Shown: piece by piece, positions 3,101-21,435 of the stretch | How the letters are laid out: the number at the start of each line of letters is the position of its first letter | Numbering within the stretch: the stretch's first letter is position 1 | Assembly: GCA_038060895.1 (NCBI GenBank) | Contig: JBBTCT010000024.1 | Location: forward strand, 96,001-160,000 | DNA from: Planctomycetota bacterium | Lineage (GTDB): Bacteria > Planctomycetota > MHYJ01 > WSZJ01 | Direction: 5' to 3' | Length of the DNA stretch: 64,000 bases | Program-made: the position numbers and the translations under genes | The notes under the pieces: generated by a model | The model's input: the letters and a program-made list of their open reading frames with translations, nothing else | Databases searched by the model: none | Told to the model about the DNA's origin: nothing

Positions 3101-3223
3101 TCGCCGTCTTCACCGTGAGGGAAAACTCGAGCCCCTCGGCGCGCCCGTCACTCCTTGAAGTCCGCGCTTCCGTTTGTCGTTGACGCTCCCCTGTCACTTC
3201 CCTAGGATTCCGCTCCCGTTGTT

Positions 3224-3297
3224 GGGGGCGTAGCTCAATTGGCTAGAGCATCGGATTGTCGATCCGAAGGTTGCGGGTTCGACCCCCGTCGCCCTCG
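3224..3297 (+). tRNA. tRNA-Asp (GTC), CCA not encoded
   Basis: Cloverleaf: acceptor GGGGGCG/CGCCCTC, D arm GCTC/GAGC, anticodon arm TCGGA-TTGTCGA-TCCGA, T arm GCGGG-TTCGACC-CCCGT, discriminator G. Confidence 0.95.
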
Positions 3298-3303
3298 TCG
3301 TTC

Positions 3304-3368: not shown

Positions 3369-3392
3369 TTGGCTGCCCACTAGGTAGCCCAC
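3369..3392. repeat. putative integrase arm-type sites (left)
   Basis: TTGGCTGCCCACTAGGTAGCCCAC, 22/24 identical to 9633-9656. Confidence 0.7.
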
Positions 3393-3409: not shown

Positions 3410-4561
3410 TCATCGCGCCCCCTCGGTGCCGGTCGCAGGCTTCGCGTTGACGGACAGGGAGAAGACCCGCGCCAGCCCGCCGATTGCCGCACGCTGCGAT
3501 TCGGGAGTCAGGTGCGCGTACTTCATGCTTGTCTGCGCGTTGCCGTGGCCAAGGATGCGCCCGGCGTCGAGAAGCGGGATTCCGGCTGCGACCATGAAAC
3601 TCATGGCGCTATGGCGAAGATCGTGCAGGCGCAGCACCCTGCGCTTCTCTTCGGGAATCTGCTTCGCGTGCTTCACGGCGTAGGCGAACGCCCTGCGCAC
3701 CGTGGTTGCAGTCTCTGCACGGCCTGAATGCTGCACGAAGACCGGCGCGGTGGGCAGCGGCAGGGCCTTGGCCTGCTTCTCCGCGAGGGCCACGTACAGG
3801 TCCGGGTGAAGCGGAATCGACCGGGTCCGCTTCGTTTTCGCGTTCGTCGCCTGCACGGTCAGAACGTGGTCCGCTAGGGAGACGTCACCCCACCGCAGGC
3901 GGATCAACTCGCTTCGACGGCAGCCCGTGGTCAGGGCCGCGAGGAAGAATGCCCGGAAGCGGTCGGGCGAGTAGTCGAGCAGCGAAGCGGCTTCGTGCGG
4001 TGCAAGGAACGTCTCCCGTGCGCGCCCGGCTTCGGAGAAGCGCCGGATGTTGTCGAGCGGATTCGCGTCTACGAAGCCCGCTTCCTTTGCCCACGTGAAG
4101 ACCGAAGAAGCGGCAGCCAAGTAGCGGTTTGCCGTGGAGACTGCGACGCCAGCCCGGAGTCTCTCATCAAGCCACACGCGAACCTGGGCTGTCTCGATGC
4201 GTGCAAGGTGGTGGGAAGCCCACGGCGTATTGGTCAGGATGCGAAGCAGGGACTTCAGGTTTACCAGCGTGCTGGCCCGCTTCGAACCGGCGGCGACTTC
4301 GAGGTAGAGCGTGGCGGCCTTGGCGAAGTCCATCTGCGCCCCGTTGTCGTCCTCGAAGATCGTGGCCAGCGCGTCCCGCAGCGTGACGTTGCGCGCGTGC
4401 AGGGCGTGCAGCCCGGACAGCTTTTCCAGCGCGTGCGCCTTGGTCGGCCCGGCGTATCGGCACAAGCGCCGATCCGTTCCTTTCCAGCGGAAGCGAACGA
4501 AGTAGCCCTCGCGTTCCGGGCGACGGCAGACATTTCCGAAATTGCGCTTGGCCACGATCAC
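3410..4561 (-). CDS. int: tyrosine recombinase/integrase
   Basis: TGCRRSEL, TKTKR, HDLRH, LGH and YAH catalytic motifs intact. Confidence 0.95.
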   Translation of the reverse strand: MIVAKRNFGNVCRRPEREGYFVRFRWKGTDRRLCRYAGPTKAHALEKLSGLHALHARNVTLRDALATIFEDDNGAQMDFAKAATLYLEVAAGSKRASTLVNLKSLLRILTNTPWASHHLARIETAQVRVWLDERLRAGVAVSTANRYLAAASSVFTWAKEAGFVDANPLDNIRRFSEAGRARETFLAPHEAASLLDYSPDRFRAFFLAALTTGCRRSELIRLRWGDVSLADHVLTVQATNAKTKRTRSIPLHPDLYVALAEKQAKALPLPTAPVFVQHSGRAETATTVRRAFAYAVKHAKQIPEEKRRVLRLHDLRHSAMSFMVAAGIPLLDAGRILGHGNAQTSMKYAHLTPESQRAAIGGLARVFSLSVNAKPATGTEGAR

Positions 4562-4728
4562 TCTCCCTTTCCGGCGGTCGGCCCGCCCTTGCCCTTCGCC
4601 CTCGCGTCGAGTGCGGCTTCGACGAGCAGGCGAAGCAGGTCAGAAACCTTCCGCTTGTCCCTCATCGCTTCGTCTTCGAGACGGCGGCGCAGGTCAGCGG
4701 ACAGTCGAACGGTCAAGGTGCTGCCCAT
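4558..4728 (-). CDS. ribbon-helix-helix (CopG-like) regulator
   Basis: STLTVRLSADLRRRLEDEAMRDKRKVSDLLRLLVE; GGAGGG RBS; GTGA overlap with int. Confidence 0.8.
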   Translation of the reverse strand: MGSTLTVRLSADLRRRLEDEAMRDKRKVSDLLRLLVEAALDARAKGKGGPTAGKGE

Positions 4729-5044: not shown

Positions 5045-5398
5045 ATGGACAAGTGGAAAATCGACGTTCGCCTTGCCGTTATCCCCGCTGTGTTCGGAAT
5101 CGGGTGCCTTGTCGGATCGCTGTGGCCCAGGTCGGAGGCTAGGGCGGAAGGCGGGGCGGACAGCGGCAAGTACCTGCTTTTCAATGGGACGTACCTCGGC
5201 TCCGAGGAGAAGACTGTCGATCCGGAAGCAGCTTCCGTAAAACTGAAGCAGTACACATCGCTGTTTCGCTTGAACACGGAGACTGGTGAGACGATGGAGT
5301 ACTCCGATGGTCTGAGGTTCACGGACGGAAGCTACATTCCCACGCATTGGTCCGGCCCGGTCGAGGATGAATTAAGGCTGGTCAGGCCTCCGAAGTAG
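5045..5398 (+). CDS. hypothetical membrane-anchored/exported protein (island cargo)
   Basis: AAGGAG upstream; N-terminal hydrophobic segment; only plus-strand gene in the island. Confidence 0.65.
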   Translation: MDKWKIDVRLAVIPAVFGIGCLVGSLWPRSEARAEGGADSGKYLLFNGTYLGSEEKTVDPEAASVKLKQYTSLFRLNTETGETMEYSDGLRFTDGSYIPTHWSGPVEDELRLVRPPK

Positions 5399-5406
5399 TA
5401 GGCACG

Positions 5407-5634
5407 TCACACCCGTCCACCCTTCCCTCCGGGATCGGGTTTCCGGTACGCGCGGTATCCCTGCGCAAGTTTCTCGCGTCTCAACTTCTCTAGCTCAACG
5501 AGCGGAATTCGAAGCGTTCGCCCCCACCTGTGGGACGGAAGCTCCCCGGACCGAACCATCCGGTAAACGGTCACGATGGACAGGTCTAGCAATCGCGCTA
5601 CCGTTCGCAGGCTGCCGTCGATTTGACCGGACAT
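5407..5634 (-). CDS. excisionase-like helix-turn-helix (HTH_17) protein
   Basis: VARLLDLSIVTVYRMVRSGELPSHRWGRTLRIP; AAGGAG RBS. Confidence 0.85.
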   Translation of the reverse strand: MSGQIDGSLRTVARLLDLSIVTVYRMVRSGELPSHRWGRTLRIPLVELEKLRREKLAQGYRAYRKPDPGGKGGRV

Positions 5635-5645
5635 GACGAGACTCC

Positions 5646-6086
5646 TTAGGAAGAGAAAGGGACGATTCCAGCGGTGCTTCGTTCCGTTTTGCACGGGTAA
5701 CAGACATCGCAAGTCAGGAAGCCCCCGGCATCCCGGTACAGGCAGCGGCCCATCCCCCGGTCCTCCGCACGCCCGCAGTTCCAGCAGGTCGAGGTACAGG
5801 CGGCCCGCCGATCCAGCTCGCTTGTCGCCTCCGCGATCCACGCCAGCACTTCGGGGGAATCGACTACGGTCTCGGAGGGCGTTGTTGCGGCATTCACGGG
5901 CGGCGTTGCGGGGGCGTTGCGCTGCCCGTTGCGCGAGAGAACGGCAAGCGCCATAGAGCGAATGTCGAGGTCGTTGCGCTCCGGGTGCGTTGGCGGTTGC
6001 GCAAACACCCCTGCGTGTTGCGTGTTGCGTTCACTAGTACGCGCAGCGCGCAACACCTTGTCCGGCTTGGCAGGATCGGGGGTCAT
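5646..6086 (-). CDS. hypothetical protein with C-terminal Cys cluster (possible Zn finger)
   Basis: ATGA overlap with primase stop; CWNC...CDVC. Confidence 0.6.
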   Translation of the reverse strand: MTPDPAKPDKVLRAARTSERNTQHAGVFAQPPTHPERNDLDIRSMALAVLSRNGQRNAPATPPVNAATTPSETVVDSPEVLAWIAEATSELDRRAACTSTCWNCGRAEDRGMGRCLYRDAGGFLTCDVCYPCKTERSTAGIVPFSS

Positions 6087-7837
6087 AGCTTGCCGTCCTT
6101 CTTCGCCTGCCGCAGGAATCGAGAGACGTTGGACGGGTCCCTGCCCACGATCCCGGCAATCTCTCGAATGCCGCAGCCTTCCTTCTTCAGCGCAATTGCT
6201 TCGTCGTGCCACGCCGTCTCGCAGTCCTTGGTGGAGCAGCGCAGGATGCCGTCCGAACCGGTTTCAAGGCGGGCTTCGAAGGGTGCGACCGCGTCGCCCC
6301 GGACCCCGCGCGCCTTCTCGAAGTGAACCTCGAAGCGGCTACCCTCCGAGGGCGAGTAGTCAGAGGGGTGGCGCAGGGAGAGGACCAAGTTCACGACGTC
6401 TTCGCGCTTCGACGTCCCGCGCTGCTTCCCGCCCTTCCCCGCGTGATGGACCATGAACACGGTGATCCCCCTGCGGCGCAGCTTCAGGATGTAGGTCTGC
6501 ATGGCGTCCCACGATTCGCTGTCGTTCTCGGGGCCGCCGTTGGCCAGCGTGGAGAGGTTGTCGATGAAGACCACATCCACATCCTTCAGGTGAGGTTCAA
6601 GCAGCGCCTGTCCCTCGAAGGTCGCAAGGTTCGGGGTGCCGGACTCCTGAAGGTCAGGCGTGACAATCTTGAAGAAGTCCGGGTCCGGCTGCGCCTCCAT
6701 GCCCGCGAGGATGGCGGCAACCCGGTGCTGCACATCTTCCGCAGCCATTTCCCCGTCAACGAAGAGAACCCGGCGGGGCTTCCGGGCGATCCAACGAAGC
6801 ACGCGACCGCCGCAGGCGATGCCGCAGGCGAGTAGCAGCGCAAGCCAGGTCTTCGAGACTCCACGCCAGCCATACGCCAGCACCAAGTCCTTGGCGCGGA
6901 GGATGGCGTCGCCCTTCTCCGTTTCGAGGATGGCTTCGCGCGGCTGAAGTGTCTTCGCCAGAAACTCGCGCGCATTCAGCACGGTCAGGCTGCGCGCAGG
7001 TGAAGAAGTCTCAGTCGAACCTGCGGGATAGCGGCAGATGCTCTTCGCAATATCCGCGAGTTCCTGTTCACCGACCGGCTCTTCGAGACGTTCGACGGTG
7101 TTGACAACTCGCAGCGCAGCGAGGATTTCTGCCTCCGTGAATCCCCGCCTGCGGAAGGACCCTGCGATGCTGGCCAGCCAATGATTCCGCTCCCCGATCT
7201 TGATCTTCTCCGGCAGCACGGGTGCTGGCCCTGTCTTCGCCCCGTGGCCATTTCGACCGAGGACCACATCGAGGACTTTTTCGTGCGCAGCCGCGATCTT
7301 CACTTCTCCCGGCCTGCTACTGGCCTCCCATTCGTAGTTTCGCCCCGAACGATGCGCCGCAGGTGTGACGATGATGTATCCGCCGTCTCCCCGAATGTCG
7401 ATGCCCGGCAGGATGCCCACCTTCGACGGCACGGAGACCCCCTCCGGCATTCCGAGGAGGAAGTGTCGCCCGCCGCCGCCGGTCAGGGCCTGCACGGTGT
7501 CTGGCCACGGGGCCAGATTTTTCAGCGTCTCGAAGCTGTCGTCTCCACCGTGGCCGGGATCGACGTCCACGACGAAGAAGCCGGACGGCGCGCCGGTAGC
7601 GACGGCGGGATTGGCGTCCGGCCAACGATCCCACCACGCCTTGATGATGACGTCGTCCTTCGTGCCGTCGAGGAAGCCGCGAGGTACGCGGGGGTGCTTC
7701 CCCGGTGAATGACAGTCGGCATCGCCGCAGGTGCAGCGCCCTGCTTCGTCTATGGAATGGCAGGGGAAGACGGACCATCCGTAGTGCTTCGCGTACCAAC
7801 GGGCCGCTTCACCGCGTTTGCTCTGCTTCGAGTTCAT
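6083..7837 (-). CDS. bifunctional primase/polymerase (Prim-Pol) + PriCT + RepA/AAA_25 helicase + C-terminal HTH
   Basis: GWSVFPC..CTCG..C.SPGKHP, VVDVD, GIDIRGDGGYII, GERN, Walker A-like GWRGVSKT, FIDNLS, HHAGK..QRGTS. Confidence 0.9.
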   Translation of the reverse strand: MNSKQSKRGEAARWYAKHYGWSVFPCHSIDEAGRCTCGDADCHSPGKHPRVPRGFLDGTKDDVIIKAWWDRWPDANPAVATGAPSGFFVVDVDPGHGGDDSFETLKNLAPWPDTVQALTGGGGRHFLLGMPEGVSVPSKVGILPGIDIRGDGGYIIVTPAAHRSGRNYEWEASSRPGEVKIAAAHEKVLDVVLGRNGHGAKTGPAPVLPEKIKIGERNHWLASIAGSFRRRGFTEAEILAALRVVNTVERLEEPVGEQELADIAKSICRYPAGSTETSSPARSLTVLNAREFLAKTLQPREAILETEKGDAILRAKDLVLAYGWRGVSKTWLALLLACGIACGGRVLRWIARKPRRVLFVDGEMAAEDVQHRVAAILAGMEAQPDPDFFKIVTPDLQESGTPNLATFEGQALLEPHLKDVDVVFIDNLSTLANGGPENDSESWDAMQTYILKLRRRGITVFMVHHAGKGGKQRGTSKREDVVNLVLSLRHPSDYSPSEGSRFEVHFEKARGVRGDAVAPFEARLETGSDGILRCSTKDCETAWHDEAIALKKEGCGIREIAGIVGRDPSNVSRFLRQAKKDGKL

Positions 7838-8046
7838 CTCGGGGAGTCCTGAATCATGGCGAAAACGAGGGCGAGAAGATCGACGGCAGGATGCCTGCCG
7901 AGGATGACGATGGATTCGCGCAGCTGCGGGTGTCGGGCGACAGCGGCATAGACAGCCGCGCGCGGCCCTCCGGCACGGAGAGACCCGAGGGAGAGGAACC
8001 GCATGGCCCGGTCCGAACGCGCGCTTCGAGGAAGCCGGGGTATCAC
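7834..8046 (-). CDS. small hypothetical protein
   Basis: 4-bp stop/start overlaps with both neighbours. Confidence 0.5.
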   Translation of the reverse strand: MIPRLPRSARSDRAMRFLSLGSLRAGGPRAAVYAAVARHPQLRESIVILGRHPAVDLLALVFAMIQDSPR

Positions 8047-8360
8047 TTCCCACCCCCCTTCAGGAACCGGGGCTTTCGGCGGAGTTCTGCGAGTAGCGCG
8101 TCATTCGGGTGCGGCGGAAGCGGGCGCGGATCGGGTCGCGGCGGTGGCGACTGCGCCCGCGAATCGAGGGCAGCCCGCAGGTCGGCGGCCCTGCACGCAA
8201 GCCTGCGCCCCACGCGAATCAGCGGCACGCCAAGTCGGCGCAGCGCCTTGGGAGCGGATTCGGCGTCGATGTCCAGAATCACCCCTACGTCGTCCATCAA
8301 GGGGTATTCGGGCCACGATGCCCTTCTCACTTCGATGCTGTACTTGCCTTTGGTGTCCAT
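8043..8360 (-). CDS. putative winged-HTH/AlpA-like DNA-binding protein
   Basis: DDVGVILDI...LGVPLIRVGRRLACRAADL resembles excisionase/AlpA wing. Confidence 0.55.
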   Translation of the reverse strand: MDTKGKYSIEVRRASWPEYPLMDDVGVILDIDAESAPKALRRLGVPLIRVGRRLACRAADLRAALDSRAQSPPPRPDPRPLPPHPNDALLAELRRKPRFLKGGGK

Positions 8361-8421
8361 ATTCGACCAAGGGGGTACAGCCGCCCGCAGATTCGGAAGA
8401 AAATCGGAATTCCCTAAGCTC

Positions 8422-9516
8422 TTACGCGGTCCACCCTTTCGACTTGGCCAGCAGGAGGACTAGCTCCCCGTCGTCCTCGGCATGGAGAGCCTCATTGAGC
8501 GTGGGCGGTGTGACGTCCCAATCGCGGGCGACGGTCTCCTTCGAGGGGGGAGGGACTTCGGTGATTCGCCTTTCCAGCCAGTCGAGGGCTGCCAGTCTGC
8601 CTTTTGCGAGGTCTTCGGATTTCCGTTCGCGGATGTACTGGAGGATCAAGGCGGCGGTTTCCTTGGCTTCCTTCGCGTCCTTCGTTTCTTTCACGTCCTC
8701 GATAGTGTCTTTGAGTTTGGTGTCTTCGTCCTCGCCGACCTGAACCTCCAAGCTCACCGTGCGCCGGGCGTGGCGACGCCGTTTGATGCATTCTCTTTTC
8801 ACTCGGTCCGCATAGGTCGCCACTTTCATGGCCAGCTTGCCGTCCTTCAGCTTGTAGTCCTTCTCGTAGCTCGCCCTGCCGTACACGTCGCAGATGATGT
8901 CCTCGATAACCGCCTCCGTGCTGGTCGGGTCAATCTCTCTGCGGTCCCCTGTCTTCGAAGGCTTGATCCGCCTGCGGTGTAGTAGCTTCTCGATTTCGCT
9001 GCGGATACCCGGCGGCCACGGAGAAGGGTTATCGGCGTCGCGGAGGAAATGCTCTTCGACAAGGGTCTCGTTCAGGATGCGGAATAGGACCTGGGTCCAG
9101 ACCCTTCGCAGAGTCGCGTGGCGTTCGGTCTTCGGTGTTGACGACATCGCGGGCCGGACCACGCCTTCAAACCAGCGGTTCATGCAGGCGGCGGCAGCCT
9201 CACAATTGATCTCGTCCGCCCGCTGCGCAGAGACGCCCGCCAATCGGATTCCCACCGAGAAGCCCGGCACCACGCCTGATTTGTCGAAGAGGTCTTTGTG
9301 ACGCCCACGGATGTGGGCCAGAATTGACTGGTACATGAGTTCCGCCTTGGCGTCTGACAGGTTGCCCTTTTCGTCGGCGGCTTCTGCGAGGTGCCCCTGC
9401 ACGTTCCAGCAAAGCCACGAGAAGATAACGTCCATCGGTTCCAGCGGCGGCATCGGCAACGGCGGTAGAGAGACTGCCCCCGGCCTGCAAAAGAGCCTGT
9501 CTTCGGTGTCTGGCAT
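8422..9516 (-). CDS. divergent sigma70-like protein
   Basis: VATYADRVKRECIKR (region 2-like), VSLEVQVGEDEDTKLKDTIED (region 3.2-like), SKETVARDWDVTPPTL (HTH); GGAGAGG RBS. Confidence 0.55.
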   Translation of the reverse strand: MPDTEDRLFCRPGAVSLPPLPMPPLEPMDVIFSWLCWNVQGHLAEAADEKGNLSDAKAELMYQSILAHIRGRHKDLFDKSGVVPGFSVGIRLAGVSAQRADEINCEAAAACMNRWFEGVVRPAMSSTPKTERHATLRRVWTQVLFRILNETLVEEHFLRDADNPSPWPPGIRSEIEKLLHRRRIKPSKTGDRREIDPTSTEAVIEDIICDVYGRASYEKDYKLKDGKLAMKVATYADRVKRECIKRRRHARRTVSLEVQVGEDEDTKLKDTIEDVKETKDAKEAKETAALILQYIRERKSEDLAKGRLAALDWLERRITEVPPPSKETVARDWDVTPPTLNEALHAEDDGELVLLLAKSKGWTA

Positions 9517-9632
9517 TTGCGTCCTCTCCCGCGAAGGCGAGCGGAGCCGCAGAGAGGTGCGGCCCACGCCCGCCGGTTAGCGCGAGGACCGTCGCCCTCG
9601 CGCAGGTCATTCTATCCGCGCCGTCGCGGCGC

Positions 9633-9665
9633 TTGGCTGCCCACGTGGTAGCCCACGGGCTGCCC
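9633..9665. repeat. putative integrase arm-type sites (right)
   Basis: TTGGCTGCCCACGTGGTAGCCCACGGGCTGCCC, three GCCC(AC)-containing units. Confidence 0.7.
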
Positions 9666-9794
9666 GATGTCGTCCGACGTCGTCCGGCGTCTTCCGCCTT
9701 CCAGCCGATCCTGCGCTTGCCGTAACCCGTGGTGATGTCGCACGTTTACGCGATCTTCCCTCGAAGTCCGGCGAACGGATTCGCGGAAGCTGAT

Positions 9795-9820
9795 TCGGAT
9801 TGTCGATCCGAAGGTTGCGG
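9795..9820 (+). repeat. att site: displaced tRNA-Asp fragment 1
   Basis: Identical to 3251-3276. Confidence 0.92.
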
Positions 9821-9866
9821 CGTCGTCCCCAGCTGTTTGCCACGGCCTTGCACTCCCGCCGTTCCT

Positions 9867-12290
9867 TCACATCGCGTCCAGAGTCTCCCGCACCCTTCTC
9901 GCCAGTCCGTCCGCGGTAAAAGGTTTCTGCAGGAAGTGCACGTCCTGGTCCAGGACACCGTGGTGGACGATGGCGTTGCTGGTGTAGCCGGAGACGTAGA
10001 GGACGGGCAAGCCGGGACGGATCTCGGACAGGCGCTTGTGGAGGTCGCGGCCGCTCAATCCCGGCATGACGACGTCGGTGACCAGGAGGCGGATGGCATC
10101 GGTGTTCTTCATGAAGACTTCGATGGCTTCCGGGCCGCTTGCCGCCTCCAGGACGACATACCCCTTGCTACGCAGGACCGCGCAAGCCAATTTTCGGACG
10201 GCAGGCTCGTCTTCCACGACCAGGATGCCCTCGGAGCCCCGGGGGACGTCGCGCGGGGCCTCCCGGTCAGGAGTGCTGGCCGCCTCCTGGACGCTCGGAA
10301 AGTAGATCTTGAAGGTCGTGCCTATTCCGGGCTCGCTGTAGACCCAGATGTTGGCGCCGCTTTGTTTCACGATGCCGTGGACGGTTGCCAATCCGAGCCC
10401 TGTGCCTTTTCCGATGACCTTGGTGGTAAAGAAAGGTTCGAAGAGGTGTTCCTGCGTATTGCGGTCCATGCCGATTCCATTGTCGCTGACGGCCAGCATG
10501 ACGTAGGAACCGGGAGCGACGGACGTGTGCGCCCGGGAGTAGGCCTCATCGAGCTGCACGTTGGCGGTTTCGAGGGTCAGTCTGCCGCCGTTGGGCATGG
10601 CGTCACGGGCGTTCACGGCGAGATTCATGATGATCTGCTCAAGCTGCCCGGGGTCGGCCTTGACGAGGTGGAGGCCGGGTGCAAGGGAACTCCTGAGGTC
10701 GACGTCTTCGCCGATGAGGCGTTTCAGGAGTTGCTCCATCTTCTGCACGATGACGTTGATGTCGATCACCTTGAGCACGAGGATCTGGTTACGGCTGAAC
10801 GCCAGGAGCTGGCGGGTCAGGTCGGCCGCCCGGTCTCCCGCGGCCAGGATTTCCTTGAGTGATTCCCGCACGGGATTCCCCTCGCGGAACTGCTCGATCA
10901 GGGTCTCGCTGTAACCATTGATTACGGTGAGAAGGTTGTTGAAGTCGTGGGCGATTCCGCCGGCCAGGCGTCCGATCGATTCGACTTTCTGCGATTGCTC
11001 CAGCTGGCCGCGGAGGCGGTGCCGGACGAGGAATTGGCCGATCTGGCTGCCCAGGTCGGCCATCATCGCCAGCATGTCTTCATCCGGCTTTTCGATCTTC
11101 CGGCTGAAGAACATCATGACGGCGGACGCCTTGTCCTCGCTCGCGACCGGGAAGGCGAACGCCCCGTGGAGATTCAGGCGCGCCGCGAGTTTCGTGCGCG
11201 GGCAGGCCGCTTCCTTGGCGACGTCCTCGAACCACATCGCCTTGCCGCTGGCCGCCACGCTTCCGGCAATGCCGGTCCCGACAGGCCATGGGGCTCCCCG
11301 GGCCGCGTTTTCGAACTCCTCCAGGTCCACGTTTGGGAGATGCCAGCCCCGCACGAACTGCATCATCTGGTCGCGGAAACTCACCGTCCAGACCTCCCCG
11401 TGGGCCCAGTTCATGCTCTCGCACACGGCCTTCAGGATCCTCGGGGCGACCTCTTCGAAGGACTCACCTTCCGAAAGGATGGCCGTGACCGCGCTGCGCG
11501 CGACGAGGCGCACCGCGTAGCGCTCGCGCTCCTCAAGCGCCGCCTCGAGCCCCGCCCGGACCTTCTCCAGGCCCTGCCGGCGCTTTCTTTCCGAAATATC
11601 GACGATGGCGGCCAGAACGAACGTCTCTCCCTCGATCGTGATCGGATTGAGTCCGATTTCCAGCGGAACTTGCGTCCCGTCCTTCCGACGCCCGTACAGG
11701 TCGCGCCCTTCTCCCATGGACCGGGGGCGCGGATTCGCAAGGAACTGGTTGCGGATCTCGACATGGGTCTTCTGGAGGCTGGCCGGCATGAGCATCTCGA
11801 TGAATTGCCCCAGCATTTCCGCGCGGGAATACCCGAAGATCTTCTCCGCCTGCGAATTGACGAAGGTGATCTTCCCGTGCCCGTCCACCAGGACCATCGC
11901 GCTCGGCGCGGCCTCCAGGATCAGCCGCACCCGGTCGTCCGCCTGCTTCCGCTCCGTCAGGTCCCTCGCTATCGCGTATAGACGAGTGGACCCGGAAGCG
12001 GGAGGTGCGACCCTCCAGGAAAGCCATCGCCACGTCCCGTCCTTGCAGCGATAGCGGTTCTCGAACTCCAGAACCGGAGCGCCCTTCGCCTGCTTTGCCG
12101 CAACGTCAATGGTCGCCTGCCGATCGTCGGGGTGGACGAAGTCGAGCCAGGGACGTGCAAGGATCTCTTCAACCGTCCACCCGAGGACCCGCTCCCAGGA
12201 GGGACTCAGTCGCTTGAAATAGCCGTCGAGATCTGCGACCGCCAGCAGATCGATGCTGTTTTCGAAAAGAACTTCAAGCTCGCCGCTCAT
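9867..12290 (-). CDS. hybrid sensor histidine kinase PAS-PAS-GAF-HisKA-HATPase-REC
   Basis: [32 protein letters not shown]; start may lie further upstream (to 12383). Confidence 0.93.
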   Translation of the reverse strand: MSGELEVLFENSIDLLAVADLDGYFKRLSPSWERVLGWTVEEILARPWLDFVHPDDRQATIDVAAKQAKGAPVLEFENRYRCKDGTWRWLSWRVAPPASGSTRLYAIARDLTERKQADDRVRLILEAAPSAMVLVDGHGKITFVNSQAEKIFGYSRAEMLGQFIEMLMPASLQKTHVEIRNQFLANPRPRSMGEGRDLYGRRKDGTQVPLEIGLNPITIEGETFVLAAIVDISERKRRQGLEKVRAGLEAALEERERYAVRLVARSAVTAILSEGESFEEVAPRILKAVCESMNWAHGEVWTVSFRDQMMQFVRGWHLPNVDLEEFENAARGAPWPVGTGIAGSVAASGKAMWFEDVAKEAACPRTKLAARLNLHGAFAFPVASEDKASAVMMFFSRKIEKPDEDMLAMMADLGSQIGQFLVRHRLRGQLEQSQKVESIGRLAGGIAHDFNNLLTVINGYSETLIEQFREGNPVRESLKEILAAGDRAADLTRQLLAFSRNQILVLKVIDINVIVQKMEQLLKRLIGEDVDLRSSLAPGLHLVKADPGQLEQIIMNLAVNARDAMPNGGRLTLETANVQLDEAYSRAHTSVAPGSYVMLAVSDNGIGMDRNTQEHLFEPFFTTKVIGKGTGLGLATVHGIVKQSGANIWVYSEPGIGTTFKIYFPSVQEAASTPDREAPRDVPRGSEGILVVEDEPAVRKLACAVLRSKGYVVLEAASGPEAIEVFMKNTDAIRLLVTDVVMPGLSGRDLHKRLSEIRPGLPVLYVSGYTSNAIVHHGVLDQDVHFLQKPFTADGLARRVRETLDAM

Positions 12291-12612
12291 GACGCCGCGC
12301 TCCAGCAGAAGTGCCATAGCAAGTCTTGCCTGCCAGCCGACTCGGGGAAGCGCAGCCCAGGTCCCTGCAAATGCGCCATCCACGAACTCTCACCACCCGC
12401 GACCCTTATACCAGACCACCCTGACATTCCACTACGCCGGGCGAAGCCCGGGCGCGCACTCTCGCCCCTGCCCGGTCAATCGACCCGCGGGCCAAACGCG
12501 GCTCGACCGAAATCTTGTCTCTACCGCAAAACCTCGCCAACTGTGTGCGCGCACGGGTGGCCACTCCTGCCCACTGGTGACCACTCATGAACTCTCCTGC
12601 CTCATCTCGCTT

Positions 12613-12641
12613 CATCGGATTGTCGATCCGAAGGTTGCGGG
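12613..12641 (+). repeat. att site: displaced tRNA-Asp fragment 2
   Basis: CATCGGATTGTCGATCCGAAGGTTGCGGG identical to 3249-3277. Confidence 0.9.
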
Positions 12642-12828
12642 GACTCCTGATCAACGCAGCTTCGCACACCCTTTCAGAGAGGGAACTTCCACGCTTTGGA
12701 ATCCGGGTCCCTGCAAGTGGTAACCTCTCTGTGGGGAGGCGGAACTTCGGGCGGCGACGAATCCTGTCGAAGCCCCGGGTACCGGAATTGGATTGTGTTT
12801 TCGGGCTCGCGCCCGGGGGAGGGCGACC

Positions 12829-20519: not shown

Positions 20520-21098
20520 TTACTTCGTGCCTGCCGGTGCTGCCCAGCCGGAGGTCGTCGAGCCGAGCAGTGCATCCACGACGCCCTGCGTCGGGGATCC
20601 GATCGCGAACACATCGACGCGGCCCTGGAAGAAGAGCACGTTGATGTCGTCGCCGGTCCCGTGGTTCGGGGTGCCGGCCTGGAGGTCATCGCAGCCCATG
20701 GGCAGGTCCGGCGGAGCGCCGTCCGTGATGCCCGTGGCCGTCCAGGTGTAGGTCGCGCCGCCGATGGGGGTGTACGAGCCGGCGCCGGTGATGCCCTTGT
20801 AGTGAGTGCCCGTGCCGCTCTTGCCGACGACCGCGCAGCGGAACAGGTTGCCGTCCGTCGCCATGTCAGGCCGCCAGAGGAGACCGAACCATGAAGCGGC
20901 GCCCGGGGTCGGGTAGGCCTTGAACTTGCCTTCGTAGAGGGCGTAGTAGATGCCCATCTGCTTCAAGCTGTTCTTGCAGTCCGTCTTGCGGCTGGACTTT
21001 CTGGCGGCGGCGAGGGCGGGGAGCAGAAGAGCTGCCAGGATGCCGATGATGGCGATAACGACGAGCAGTTCGATCAGGGTGAAGCCTTTTTTACGCAT
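20520..21098 (-). CDS. prepilin N-terminal methylation domain protein (DUF1559/H-X9-DG-like)
   Basis: [48 protein letters not shown]. Confidence 0.92.
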
Positions 21099-21435
21099 GG
21101 GTGAGTTCCTTGGAAAACGGATGCCAGTGGTTGGGTTGAGAGACGCAGTCACTGCGGGTTCGGTTGTCGTGGCCGCCTCGGAAGGATCTCGAAGTCCGGT
21201 TCCCTCGGCGCCCGACGTGGGGGCGGTCCGGGAAGCAGGCTGTCGTGGTGCGTCCCCGTTCGGGGAAGGGAGTCAGGGCGTCGCTGGCCGGCGATCCGAA
21301 TGCTCGGAATGAATGAATCGGATGAGATTGGGTGGGTGGCCTCGGCGACGACGTGTACGCCCGTTCGCTCAGATCTTCCAGTCGCGGTCCTGCGTGCCTC
21401 ATTTCTCGCAAAGATTGGGTTTAAGATCTTGAAGT

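What the first reader, a model, noticed from the sequence alone, without database searches (positions are those of the whole stretch)
8422..9516. Island-encoded divergent sigma70-like protein with a novel N-terminal half
The C-terminal ~170 aa carry region 2-like (VATYADRVKRECIKR), region 3.2-like (VSLEVQVGEDEDTKLKDTIED, compare RpoD SLETPIGDDEDSHLGDFIED) and HTH (SKETVARDWDVTPPTL) segments. The ~200-aa N-terminus is unrecognised. It heads the replication genes. Inference: the element may use its own sigma factor or sigma mimic as an activation switch instead of an AlpA/repressor switch, or may interfere with host or helper transcription.
Basis: partly seen in the sequence, partly recalled or inferred. 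Interest (0 to 1): 0.75.

Follow-up and report, generated by a model that had tools for sequence, protein, structure and literature searches.

The report
Orphan sigma-like gene heading a small island
A protein known only from this groundwater bacterium's small mobile island resembles, weakly but consistently, a stripped-down RNA polymerase sigma factor with an unknown extra front half; mobile elements with their own sigma switch are already known, so this is a modest curiosity.

Summary
The ORF is real. It lies on the minus strand (8422-9516, 364 aa, P0001) and is the first gene of a PrimPol-helicase operon. The operon sits in a 6.6-kb island at tRNA-Asp that has an integrase, att repeats and Xis-like genes.

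P0001 is a sequence orphan. Three protein searches returned only itself.

The region 3.2-like motif is beyond chance:
- Pfam Sigma70_r3 scores 24-26 bits against a cut-off of 25.3.
- 0 of 6000 shuffles reach its score on my own RpoD profile.
- It ranks 4th of 21,369 genome ORFs, behind three true sigmas.

Residues 160-346 align colinearly with ECF sigma cores (hhalign P 0.0036). The two best Smith-Waterman hits in the whole genome are ECF sigmas, aligned in register. However, Pfam finds no region 2 or region 4, sub-segments alone are not significant, the structure models are unusable, and the RNAP-binding prediction gave no answer.

The N-terminal ~160 aa match nothing.

Best reading (about 0.5): a very divergent ECF-type sigma with a novel N-terminal extension that switches on the island operon, as Tn916 Sig7-8 or pBS32 SigN do. 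The island also carries two Xis/AlpA-type HTH genes and an RHH gene, so the sigma would not stand 'instead of' such regulators.

Novelty: a new variant of a known kind. Interest is modest.

The parts
8422..9516 (-). P0001, the 364-aa orphan ORF and first gene of the island operon
   Evidence: ATG with Shine-Dalgarno; coding-like GC1/2/3; found only as itself
9040..9516 (-). residues 1-159: helical N-terminal part with no recognisable family
   Evidence: Pfam and PHROGs give nothing below E 0.17; hhalign against ECF P 0.073; helices only in a low-confidence model
8776..9039 (-). residues 160-247: sigma-2-like stretch (regions 2.1 to 2.4 by alignment)
   Evidence: hhalign colinear alignment; Smith-Waterman alignments to two own-genome ECF sigmas start at residues 196 and 205; not found by Pfam
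8695..8757 (-). residues 254-274 (VSLEVQVGEDEDTKLKDTIED): region 3.2-like acidic 'sigma finger' motif
   Evidence: Pfam Sigma70_r3 24.0 and 26.0 bits; NCBIfam RpoD_Cterm E 6e-5; own RpoD profile, 0 of 6000 shuffles reach it, rank 4 of 21,369 ORFs; hhalign against RpoD P 0.0051
8479..8664 (-). residues 285-346: sigma-4-like stretch with a putative HTH at residues 325-345
   Evidence: hhalign places 325-345 on the ECF sigma-4 HTH; alone not significant; no Pfam HTH or r4 hit
8043..8360 (-). orf105, a small protein with an Xis-like HTH by eye
   Evidence: PHROG excisionase at only E 0.072; no Pfam hit
6083..7837 (-). PrimPol + PriCT_1 + AAA_25 helicase + C-terminal HTH: the replication protein
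   Evidence: E 2e-38, 4e-11, 2e-25
5646..6086 (-). 146-aa Cys-rich ORF; its start overlaps the PrimPol stop (ATGA)
   Evidence: no family found
5407..5634 (-). 75-aa HTH_17 excisionase/AlpA-type protein
   Evidence: Pfam HTH_17 E 1e-9, TIGR01764 E 4e-9; AAGGAG before the ATG
5045..5398 (+). 117-aa ORF on the opposite strand, hydrophobic N-terminus, unknown function
   Evidence: no family found
4558..4728 (-). 56-aa ribbon-helix-helix-like ORF overlapping the int start (GTGA)
   Evidence: RHH_5 E 2e-4, below cut-off; promoter-like TTGACT-17-TACAAT at 4794-4766
3410..4561 (-). tyrosine integrase
   Evidence: Phage_integrase E 5e-23; phrog_1 E 4e-63
3223..3299 (+). tRNA-Asp (GTC), the insertion site
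3251..3286 (.). attL copy of the direct repeat, inside the tRNA
   Evidence: family D1
9795..9830 (.). attR copy of the direct repeat (92% identical, first 26 nt identical)
   Evidence: an X5 contig spanning 9786-10354 bridges it into the flanking kinase gene
9633..9656 (.). 24-nt repeat upstream of P0001, paired with 3369-3392 at the other island end; candidate integrase arm sites
   Evidence: family D9 (92%); the function is inferred

Best explanation
P0001 is a very divergent member, or a derivative, of the sigma-70 family with the two-domain ECF-type layout. A sigma-2-like stretch (residues ~160-250) runs straight into an acidic region 3.2-like linker (254-274). A sigma-4-like HTH follows (~285-346). 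In front of this core sits a ~160-residue helical extension of unknown fold.

Inferred mechanism. As the first gene of the operon that also holds the PrimPol-helicase and an Xis-type gene, it would bind the host core RNA polymerase and direct it to island promoters. That would give a positive, possibly self-reinforcing switch for island replication and excision. The first transcripts might come from read-through from the flanking kinase gene, which lies on the same strand. The N-terminal extension may hold the sigma inactive, as the extensions of BldN or SigC do.

What is shown: the ORF, the island, the gene order, and the statistical similarity. What is inferred: RNAP binding, promoter recognition, and the switch role.
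For: (1) Region 3.2 motif.
- Pfam Sigma70_r3 scores 24.0 bits on the whole protein and 26.0 bits (E 9.8e-6) on the C-half, against a cut-off of 25.3.
- All seven NCBIfam hits are sigma families.
- A profile built from 30 RpoD C-termini of the phylum scores 10.3 bits. 0 of 6000 shuffles reach this (maximum 9.0). P0001 ranks 4th of 21,369 genome ORFs, behind three true group 1-3 sigmas.

(2) hhalign against 36 ECF sigmas of the same genome.
- One colinear alignment covers residues 160-346 against template 12-182 of 219, score 26.1, P 0.0036.
- 0 of 176 shuffles reach 25.7 (mean 13.3, maximum 24.5).
- The reversed sequence and the N-terminal half do not match.

(3) Full Smith-Waterman against all 21,368 other ORFs.
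- The two best hits are ECF sigmas. One scores 89, with 32 of 98 columns identical. The other scores 73, with 37 of 117 identical.
- Both are aligned in register over regions 2.2 to 2.4 and the linker.
- 0 of 19 shuffles reach 89 genome-wide (range 65-85), and none has an ECF as its top hit.
- The C-half scores higher against 38 short ECFs than against 770 coding-like ORFs (median 36 against 30, Mann-Whitney p 2e-8).

(4) Language-model neighbours of residues 160-364. 18 of 30 named clusters carry Sigma70_r2, mostly phage ones, at score 0.94. This is a lead only.

(5) Context.
- Another element of the phylum (L045) has a clear ECF-like sigma (hhalign probability 96.5) whose stop overlaps the PrimPol start.
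- L058 has the order sigma-like gene, helicase, PrimPol.

(6) Precedent. Tn916 Sig7-8 and pBS32 SigN are element-borne, self-activating sigmas (Gomberg and Grossman 2026; abstract and first part of the Discussion read).
Against: - Pfam finds no Sigma70_r2, r4 or ECF domain even at E up to 10.
- A HMMER profile of the genome's 57 ECF sigmas gives P0001 only 2-3 bits, and it does not list P0001 at E up to 10 genome-wide.
- BLASTP finds no sigma.
- hhalign probability is only 9%.
- The sigma-2-like, linker and sigma-4-like pieces are each non-significant alone (P 0.055-0.09).
- There is no match to the family of the PrimPol-adjacent sigma of L045 (P 0.27).
- One shuffle reached a genome-wide Smith-Waterman score of 85, and the second real hit (73) lies within the chance range of scores.
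- Sigma-like genes near PrimPol genes were found in 4 of 24 loci. About 3 would be expected from ECF density alone.
- No shared promoter motif was found in the island's intergenic regions.
- No anti-sigma family was found.
- There is no usable structure (pLDDT 43 and 48).
- The protein has no relatives, so conservation cannot be checked.
Confidence: 0.5

Rival explanations
1. P0001 is a sigma-derived or merely HTH-bearing DNA-binding regulator that does not replace sigma on the polymerase. Examples would be an activator or repressor of the island operon, or an origin-binding partner of the PrimPol-helicase. It would keep relics of sigma sequence.
For: - Only the linker motif is individually significant; regions 2 and 4 fail the Pfam models.
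- Several unrelated orphans of 245-385 aa upstream of PrimPol genes in other loci (L007, L041, L050) have only a C-terminal sigma-4-like HTH (hhalign P 0.001-0.008). This suggests that this position is filled by assorted HTH regulators.
- The PrimPol itself ends in an HTH.
Against: - The alignment with ECF sigmas is colinear over the whole sigma-2 to sigma-4 span and is best in the region 2.2-2.4 part. That part is not a DNA-binding HTH.
- An acidic region 3.2 motif has no known role outside the polymerase (established knowledge, not tested here).
Confidence: 0.25
2. The resemblance is due to chance and composition. P0001 would then be an unrelated, fast-evolving helical island protein of unknown role.
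For: - It is an orphan with no conservation to test.
- hhalign probability is 9%.
- HMMER ECF profile scores 2-3 bits.
- BLASTP gives nothing.
- One shuffle reached a Smith-Waterman score of 85 genome-wide.
- The motif is short and acidic.
- Language-model hits at 0.94 occur for some shuffled proteins, by the tool's own figures.
Against: - 0 of 6000 shuffles reach the region 3.2 score, including 3000 that keep local composition.
- Only three true sigmas outrank P0001 among 21,369 ORFs.
- Both top Smith-Waterman hits are ECF sigmas, which make up 57 of 21,368 ORFs. Both are in register. 0 of 19 shuffles and 0 of the reversed sequence's five best hits gave an ECF as the top hit.
Confidence: 0.17
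3. P0001 is a sigma mimic or decoy. It would occupy the host (or a helper phage's) polymerase through sigma-like surfaces without directing initiation, and so interfere with transcription.
For: - The group-1-type region 3.2 motif sits in an otherwise ECF-like, badly conserved frame.
- Over-made element sigmas are toxic by competing for core polymerase (Gomberg and Grossman 2026, Discussion).
Against: - No helper phage genes or capsid-related genes lie in the island.
- The position at the head of the island's own operon fits an activator better.
- Nothing tested here bears on it directly.
Confidence: 0.06

Closest known systems
ECF (group 4) sigma-70 family factors
   Same: - Two-domain layout by alignment. 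The sigma-2-like helix abuts on the linker with no room for a sigma-3 domain, and a sigma-4-like HTH follows.
- The best genome-wide pairwise hits are ECF sigmas.
   Different: - It fails the Pfam r2, r4 and ECF models.
- Its linker carries a group-1-type acidic region 3.2 motif.
- It has a ~160-aa N-terminal extension. In ECFs such extensions are rarer and generally shorter than C-terminal ones (Casas-Pastor et al. 2021, PMC7826278; passages seen).
- No anti-sigma gene is recognised nearby.
Tn916 Sig7-8 (Gomberg and Grossman, bioRxiv 10.64898/2026.10.01.756105; abstract and first part of Discussion read)
   Same: - An element-encoded sigma.
- It lies upstream of, and on the same strand as, xis and int.
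- It is proposed to act as a positive, self-activating switch for excision.
- First expression may come by read-through from upstream.
   Different: - Sig7-8 is split into two proteins, belongs to a conjugative element of Bacillota, and is shown experimentally to bind polymerase.
- P0001 is one chain, in a 6.6-kb island without conjugation genes, and is untested.
- Sequence similarity was not compared because no Sig7 or Sig8 sequence was at hand.
SigN of plasmid pBS32, and phage sigma factors (SPO1 gp28/gp33-34, T4 gp55)
   Same: - Mobile-element sigmas that take over host polymerase.
- Phage ones are 'quite divergent' from bacterial sigmas (Schwartz et al. 2022, PMC9429907; passage seen; named).
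- The language-model neighbours of P0001's C-half are mostly phage sigma-like clusters.
   Different: - No sequence match to any phage record (tblastn found none) or PHROG family.
- The names of the phage proteins are as cited or recalled.
ECF-like sigma next to PrimPol in L045 (family A2, P0004-P0010)
   Same: - Same phylum.
- A sigma gene directly before a related PrimPol gene in an integrative element.
   Different: - 203 aa with no N-terminal extension.
- The element uses a serine recombinase.
- No detectable similarity to P0001 (hhalign P 0.27).
ECFs with regulatory N-terminal extensions (BldN pro-sigma, SigC of M. tuberculosis)
   Same: An N-terminal extension in front of an ECF core, proposed to be inhibitory (Casas-Pastor et al. 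2021; passage).
   Different: P0001's extension is longer and matches nothing. Any inhibitory role is inference.

Membership tests
Sigma-70 family, ECF type (group 4) | Recognisable sigma-2 domain (regions 2.1-2.4; Pfam PF04542 or equivalent) | tested here: inconclusive
   For: the two top genome-wide Smith-Waterman hits are ECF sigmas aligned over regions 2.2-2.4, and the hhalign colinear alignment has P 0.0036. Against: no Pfam r2 hit at E up to 10; own ECF HMMER profile gives 2-3 bits; the sub-segment alone has P 0.055.
Sigma-70 family, ECF type (group 4) | Sigma-4 domain with HTH (PF04545 / PF08281) | tested here: inconclusive
   No Pfam hit. hhalign places residues 325-345 on the sigma-4 HTH, but the piece alone has P 0.064 and 2 of 40 shuffles reach it.
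Sigma-70 family, ECF type (group 4) | Linker between sigma-2 and sigma-4 that threads the polymerase (region 3.2 equivalent) | tested here: met
   Sigma70_r3 profile positions 42-70 of 78, at 24.0 and 26.0 bits against a cut-off of 25.3. 0 of 6000 shuffles reach the score on the RpoD profile; rank 4 of 21,369 ORFs.
Sigma-70 family, ECF type (group 4) | No sigma-3 domain and no region 1.1 | tested here: met
   By alignment, the region 2.4-like helix ends about 6 residues before the 3.2-like motif. The 159-aa N-terminal part matches no sigma region.
Sigma-70 family, ECF type (group 4) | Binds core RNA polymerase (beta' clamp helices, beta flap) | not testable with these tools
   The one complex job gave no verdict. 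The single-sequence models have pLDDT 43 and 48.
Sigma-70 family, ECF type (group 4) | Cognate promoter, often before its own gene | tested here: inconclusive
   No two-block motif is credibly shared by the island's intergenic regions. The only consensus promoter is sigma-70-like and lies before RHH-int.
Sigma-70 family, groups 1-3 (RpoD-like) | Complete sigma-3 domain and full-length match to RpoD-type models | tested here: not met
   Only the last third of the r3 profile is matched. NCBIfam scores are 15-23 bits against cut-offs of 354-572. hhalign against RpoD covers only residues 232-274.
Element-borne sigma switch of the Tn916 Sig7-8 kind | Two-subunit (split) sigma | tested here: not met
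   Both the sigma-2-like and sigma-4-like parts lie in one ORF. The next gene, orf105, has no sigma hit.
Element-borne sigma switch of the Tn916 Sig7-8 kind | Sigma gene upstream of xis and int in the same direction | tested here: met
   All on the minus strand, in order: P0001, orf105, PrimPol, Cys-rich ORF, HTH_17 xis, RHH, int.
tRNA-inserted tyrosine-integrase island | Integrase next to a tRNA gene, direct repeats of the tRNA 3' part at both ends, Xis-type gene | tested here: met
Phage satellites (P4-like, PICI) | Capsid-redirecting or packaging genes besides int, regulator and primase | tested here: not met
   No such family in any island ORF by Pfam, PHROGs or PADLOC.

The most novel reading that the evidence does not exclude
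P0001 is not a promoter-specificity factor. It would be a polymerase-docking adaptor that uses a sigma-2-like surface and a group-1-type 'sigma finger' to sit on host core RNA polymerase. Its novel N-terminal domain would tether that polymerase, or its short transcripts, to the island origin and to the PrimPol-helicase. Island replication would then be started by captured transcription.
Probability: 0.06. Interest if true: 0.75.

Novelty: new variant of a known kind. Interest (0 to 1): 0.35.

Why it matters
If it is a working sigma, it would extend element-borne sigma switches, so far shown for Tn916 and pBS32 in Bacillota and for phages. The extension would be to a minimal 6.6-kb replicative island in an uncultured groundwater bacterium of PVC type.

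It would also add an ECF-like core that carries a group-1-type region 3.2 finger and a long N-terminal extension.

It shows as well how far such proteins can drift below family thresholds. All four sigma-like genes near related PrimPol genes also fall below Pfam cut-offs, so element-borne sigmas are probably under-annotated.

Against this, it is a single-species orphan with no structure, no relatives and no cultured host, so little can be built on it now.

Tried and rejected
Structure and binding
- AlphaFold2 without an alignment gave unusable models: whole protein pLDDT 43.1, residues 150-364 pLDDT 48.1.
- Foldseek of the second model against the PDB found no match at E up to 0.001 (best 0.82, helical bundles). 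This is meaningless for such a model.
- Complex prediction was run with the own beta' clamp-helix segment (alignment A1, 30 rows) and P0001 residues 150-262. It gave no answer: score 0.01 against a mark of 0.32, and the partner's fold was uncertain.

Searches for relatives
- The search for homologous proteins on the whole protein returned only P0001 itself.
- The search for homologous proteins on residues 160-364 at E up to 10 returned only P0001 itself.
- The exhaustive representative search returned P0001 plus a 3117-aa repeat protein that BLASTP shows to be spurious.
- The cluster holds only the 364-aa and 381-aa forms.
- 60 related genomes gave only weak hits in short frames, E 0.001-0.006.
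- tblastn against phages found none. Against plasmids it found three irrelevant weak hits.
- PHROGs and PADLOC found none.
- The ESM Atlas search on the whole protein returned only unnamed clusters.
- PDB sequence search: the best two of five hits are SigA chains, but at E 0.19 and 0.31.

Profile and alignment tests that gave nothing
- HMMER profile of 57 own ECF sigmas: 2-3 bits.
- BLASTP against all genome ORFs: no sigma.
- hhalign against the L045 sigma family: P 0.27.
- hhalign of the separate pieces: not significant.

Context
- 24 PrimPol loci were examined (L006-L009 and L040-L059). None encodes a relative of P0001.
- A promoter motif shared by the island's intergenic regions was not found.
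- An anti-sigma zinc-finger family in the Cys-rich ORF was not found.

Sequencing runs
- Contigs of two further studies are letter-identical over the parts of P0001 they cover. No variants were available for a test of selection.
- RNA-library contigs lie on int/RHH, PrimPol, the Cys-rich ORF and orf105, but none lies on P0001. Being contigs, they show neither expression nor silence.

Earlier notes of this scan: nothing relevant.
Full report
WHAT IS THERE

The finding's coordinates hold a real ORF, but on the minus strand: 8422..9516, ATG start, 364 aa (P0001). A GTG-extended reading reaches 9567 (381 aa). GGAGAGGA lies five bases before the ATG. GC at the three codon positions is 0.625/0.436/0.764, like the neighbouring genes.

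The gene lies in a small integrative island:
- tRNA-Asp at 3223-3299.
- A 36-nt direct repeat of the tRNA's 3' part at 3251-3286 and 9795-9830, with the first 26 nt identical.
- A tyrosine integrase at 3410..4561 (Pfam E 5e-23).

All but one of the island's genes run on the minus strand. In order they are:
- P0001.
- orf105 (8043..8360).
- A PrimPol + PriCT_1 + AAA_25 protein with a C-terminal HTH (6083..7837; E 2e-38, 4e-11, 2e-25).
- A 146-aa Cys-rich ORF whose ATG overlaps the PrimPol stop (5646..6086).
- A 75-aa HTH_17 / TIGR01764 excisionase-type protein (5407..5634).
- After an opposite-strand 117-aa ORF, a 56-aa RHH-like ORF (4558..4728) that overlaps the integrase start.

So the gene does head the replication genes and is island-borne. 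The island also has Xis/AlpA-type and RHH regulators.

AN ORPHAN

- The word-indexed search of 5.8 billion proteins returned only P0001 itself (8000 candidates scored).
- The same search on residues 160-364 at E up to 10 also returned only itself (785 candidates).
- The exhaustive HMMER search of 1.84 billion representatives returned P0001 and one 3117-aa repeat protein. BLASTP shows that match to be spurious.
- The cluster holds only the 364-aa and 381-aa forms of the same gene.
- No relative was found in 60 related genomes.
- tblastn against phage and plasmid records found none and three irrelevant hits respectively.
- None of the 24 loci that encode related PrimPol proteins holds a relative.
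- Contigs of two further studies carry parts of the gene without a single difference, so there is no variation to test for selection.

IS THE SIGMA RESEMBLANCE MORE THAN CHANCE?

The region 3.2-like motif (residues 254-274, VSLEVQVGEDEDTKLKDTIED) is.
- Pfam's only hit is Sigma70_r3. It scores 24.0 bits on the whole protein and 26.0 bits (E 9.8e-6) on the C-terminal half alone. The cut-off is 25.3. In both cases only profile positions 42-70 of 78 are matched.
- All seven NCBIfam hits are sigma models, though at 15-23 bits against cut-offs of 354-572.
- I built a profile from the C-terminal 320 residues of 30 RpoD proteins of the phylum. P0001 scores 10.3 bits on it.
- None of 3000 whole-sequence shuffles and none of 3000 shuffles within 40-residue windows reaches that score (maximum 9.0).
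- Among all 21,369 ORFs of at least 90 aa in the genome, only three outrank it, and all three are true group 1-3 sigmas.

The wider resemblance is weaker but consistent.
- hhalign of P0001 against 36 short ECF sigmas of the same genome gives one colinear alignment. Residues 160-346 align to template columns 12-182 of 219, which is the whole of sigma-2, the linker and sigma-4. Score 26.1, P 0.0036, probability 9%.
- 0 of 176 shuffles reach 25.7 (mean 13.3, sd 2.4, maximum 24.5). The reversed sequence and residues 1-165 give nothing.
- A full Smith-Waterman comparison with all 21,368 other ORFs puts two ECF sigmas on top. One scores 89 over residues 196-302, with 32 of 98 columns identical. The other scores 73 over residues 205-324, with 37 of 117 identical. 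The next ORF scores 67.
- Both alignments are in register. P0001's EDIICDVYGRA lies on the ECF region 2.2, its VATYADRVKRE on region 2.4, and its RRTVSLE on the start of the linker.
- In 19 shuffles the best genome-wide score ranged from 65 to 85. None reached 89, and none had an ECF as best hit. The reversed sequence's five best hits (62-66) include no ECF.
- ECF sigmas are 57 of the 21,368 ORFs.
- The C-terminal half scores higher against 38 short ECFs than against 770 coding-like ORFs of similar length (median 36 against 30; Mann-Whitney p 2e-8).
- The language-model search with residues 160-364 among named clusters lists 18 of 30 neighbours with Sigma70_r2, mostly phage clusters, at score 0.94 with about 130 shared features. 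By the tool's own figures that is a lead, not proof.

AGAINST

- Pfam finds no region 2, region 4 or ECF model even at E up to 10.
- A HMMER profile of the 57 ECF sigmas gives 2-3 bits and does not list P0001 genome-wide.
- BLASTP sees no sigma.
- The sigma-2-like, linker and sigma-4-like pieces are each non-significant on their own against the ECF profile (P 0.055, 0.09, 0.064). The HTH is therefore not independently confirmed.
- hhalign against RpoD covers only residues 232-274 (P 0.0051).
- hhalign against the family of the PrimPol-adjacent sigma of another element finds nothing (P 0.27).
- One shuffle reached 85 in the genome-wide Smith-Waterman test, and the second real hit (73) is within chance scores.
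- Both structure models are unusable (pLDDT 43.1 and 48.1), and their fold search is meaningless.

CONTEXT ELSEWHERE

Related PrimPol proteins occur in 30 of 301 sampled genomes of the phylum. I examined 24 loci.
- An ECF-profile hit lies near the PrimPol gene in four of them.
- In L045 a clear ECF-like sigma (hhalign probability 96.5) overlaps the PrimPol start, in an element with a large serine recombinase.
- In L058 the order is sigma-like gene, DEAD helicase, PrimPol.
- In L054 the hit lies 4.7 kb upstream on the same strand. In L053 it lies on the other strand.
- All four are below Pfam cut-offs.
- From the ECF density of this genome about three hits would be expected by chance in that much DNA. 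Only the adjacency in L045 and the order in L058 carry weight.
- Three other upstream orphans (L007, L041, L050) have only a C-terminal sigma-4-like HTH.

So a sigma or HTH protein before the PrimPol gene recurs, but it is not a rule.

MECHANISM

I take P0001 to be a very divergent ECF-type sigma, or a derivative of one, with a novel ~160-residue N-terminal extension. I infer that it directs host polymerase to island promoters and so turns on the PrimPol-helicase and Xis genes behind it.

This is the logic shown for Tn916. There the split sigma Sig7-8 activates its own promoter, is needed for excision, and is first made by read-through from upstream. pBS32 SigN works likewise (Gomberg and Grossman, bioRxiv 2026; abstract and first part of the Discussion read).

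Here the flanking kinase gene ends 350 bases upstream on the same strand, with no terminator-like site between, so read-through is possible. That is inference.

N-terminal extensions of ECFs are rarer and generally shorter than C-terminal ones. Where studied (BldN, SigC) they restrain the sigma (Casas-Pastor et al. 2021; passages).

I found no candidate cognate promoter and no anti-sigma.

VERDICT

The ORF, the island, the position and the region 3.2 motif are solid. The region 2-like part is supported. The HTH is unproven. The unknown N-terminus is about 160 residues, not 200.
Sigma kinship is more likely than not, its function is untested, and it does not stand 'instead of' Xis/AlpA-type regulators.
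- Element-borne sigma switches are known, so this is a new variant of a known kind.
- It is interesting mainly for its extreme divergence, its group-1-type finger in an ECF-like frame, and its extension.
- As a single-species orphan of an uncultured organism it ranks as modest.

Noticed in passing
window 12615-12650 and 9831-12614: A third copy of the 26-nt att core lies 2.8 kb beyond attR. The segment between holds only a hybrid PAS/GAF histidine kinase (9867..12383, minus strand) and no integrase. It may be the remnant of an older insertion at the same tRNA-Asp.
   Followed up: no
window 3369-3392 and 9633-9656: 24-nt direct repeats (92% identical) lie just inside both island ends. After excision they would flank attP, so they are candidate integrase arm sites. 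The right-hand one lies about 120 nt upstream of the P0001 start.
   Followed up: no
window 7884-7900: A perfect 7-bp hairpin with a 3-nt loop lies in the 205-nt gap between orf105 and the PrimPol start. It could be an attenuator, an operator or part of an origin.
   Followed up: no
window 6107 to 9865: One low-depth contig of run X3 joins 6107 to 9865 with two other letters between. That would remove PrimPol, orf105, P0001 and attR. It is listed only in table 5c and is unverified.
   Followed up: no
window 4293-4586, 5888-6187, 6679-6957, 7955-8319: Contigs from RNA libraries of an aquifer study (X8, X10) match island genes at 0-1 differences: int/RHH, the Cys-rich ORF, PrimPol and orf105. 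Being contigs, and possibly from DNA carried over, they do not prove transcription.
   Followed up: partly
window 5646-6086 (minus strand): A 146-aa ORF coupled to the PrimPol stop has a C-terminal cluster of seven cysteines (C-x3-C-x2-C and onward). No family matches it. It was considered as a possible zinc anti-sigma, but no zf-HC2 hit was found.
   Followed up: partly
L045:145-8369 (G117): Another integrative element of the phylum has a large serine recombinase, several orphan ORFs, then a 203-aa ECF-like sigma whose stop overlaps a PrimPol start. The sigma has six relatives (P0005-P0010) with a conserved RRDWRRCRxSL stretch after region 2.4.
   Followed up: partly
G000 genome-wide: The genome encodes about 57 ECF-type sigma ORFs, several of them 400-760 aa long, and proteins with N_methyl plus DUF1559 (window 20520..21152). 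That this pairing is typical of Planctomycetota is recalled, not tested.
   Followed up: no
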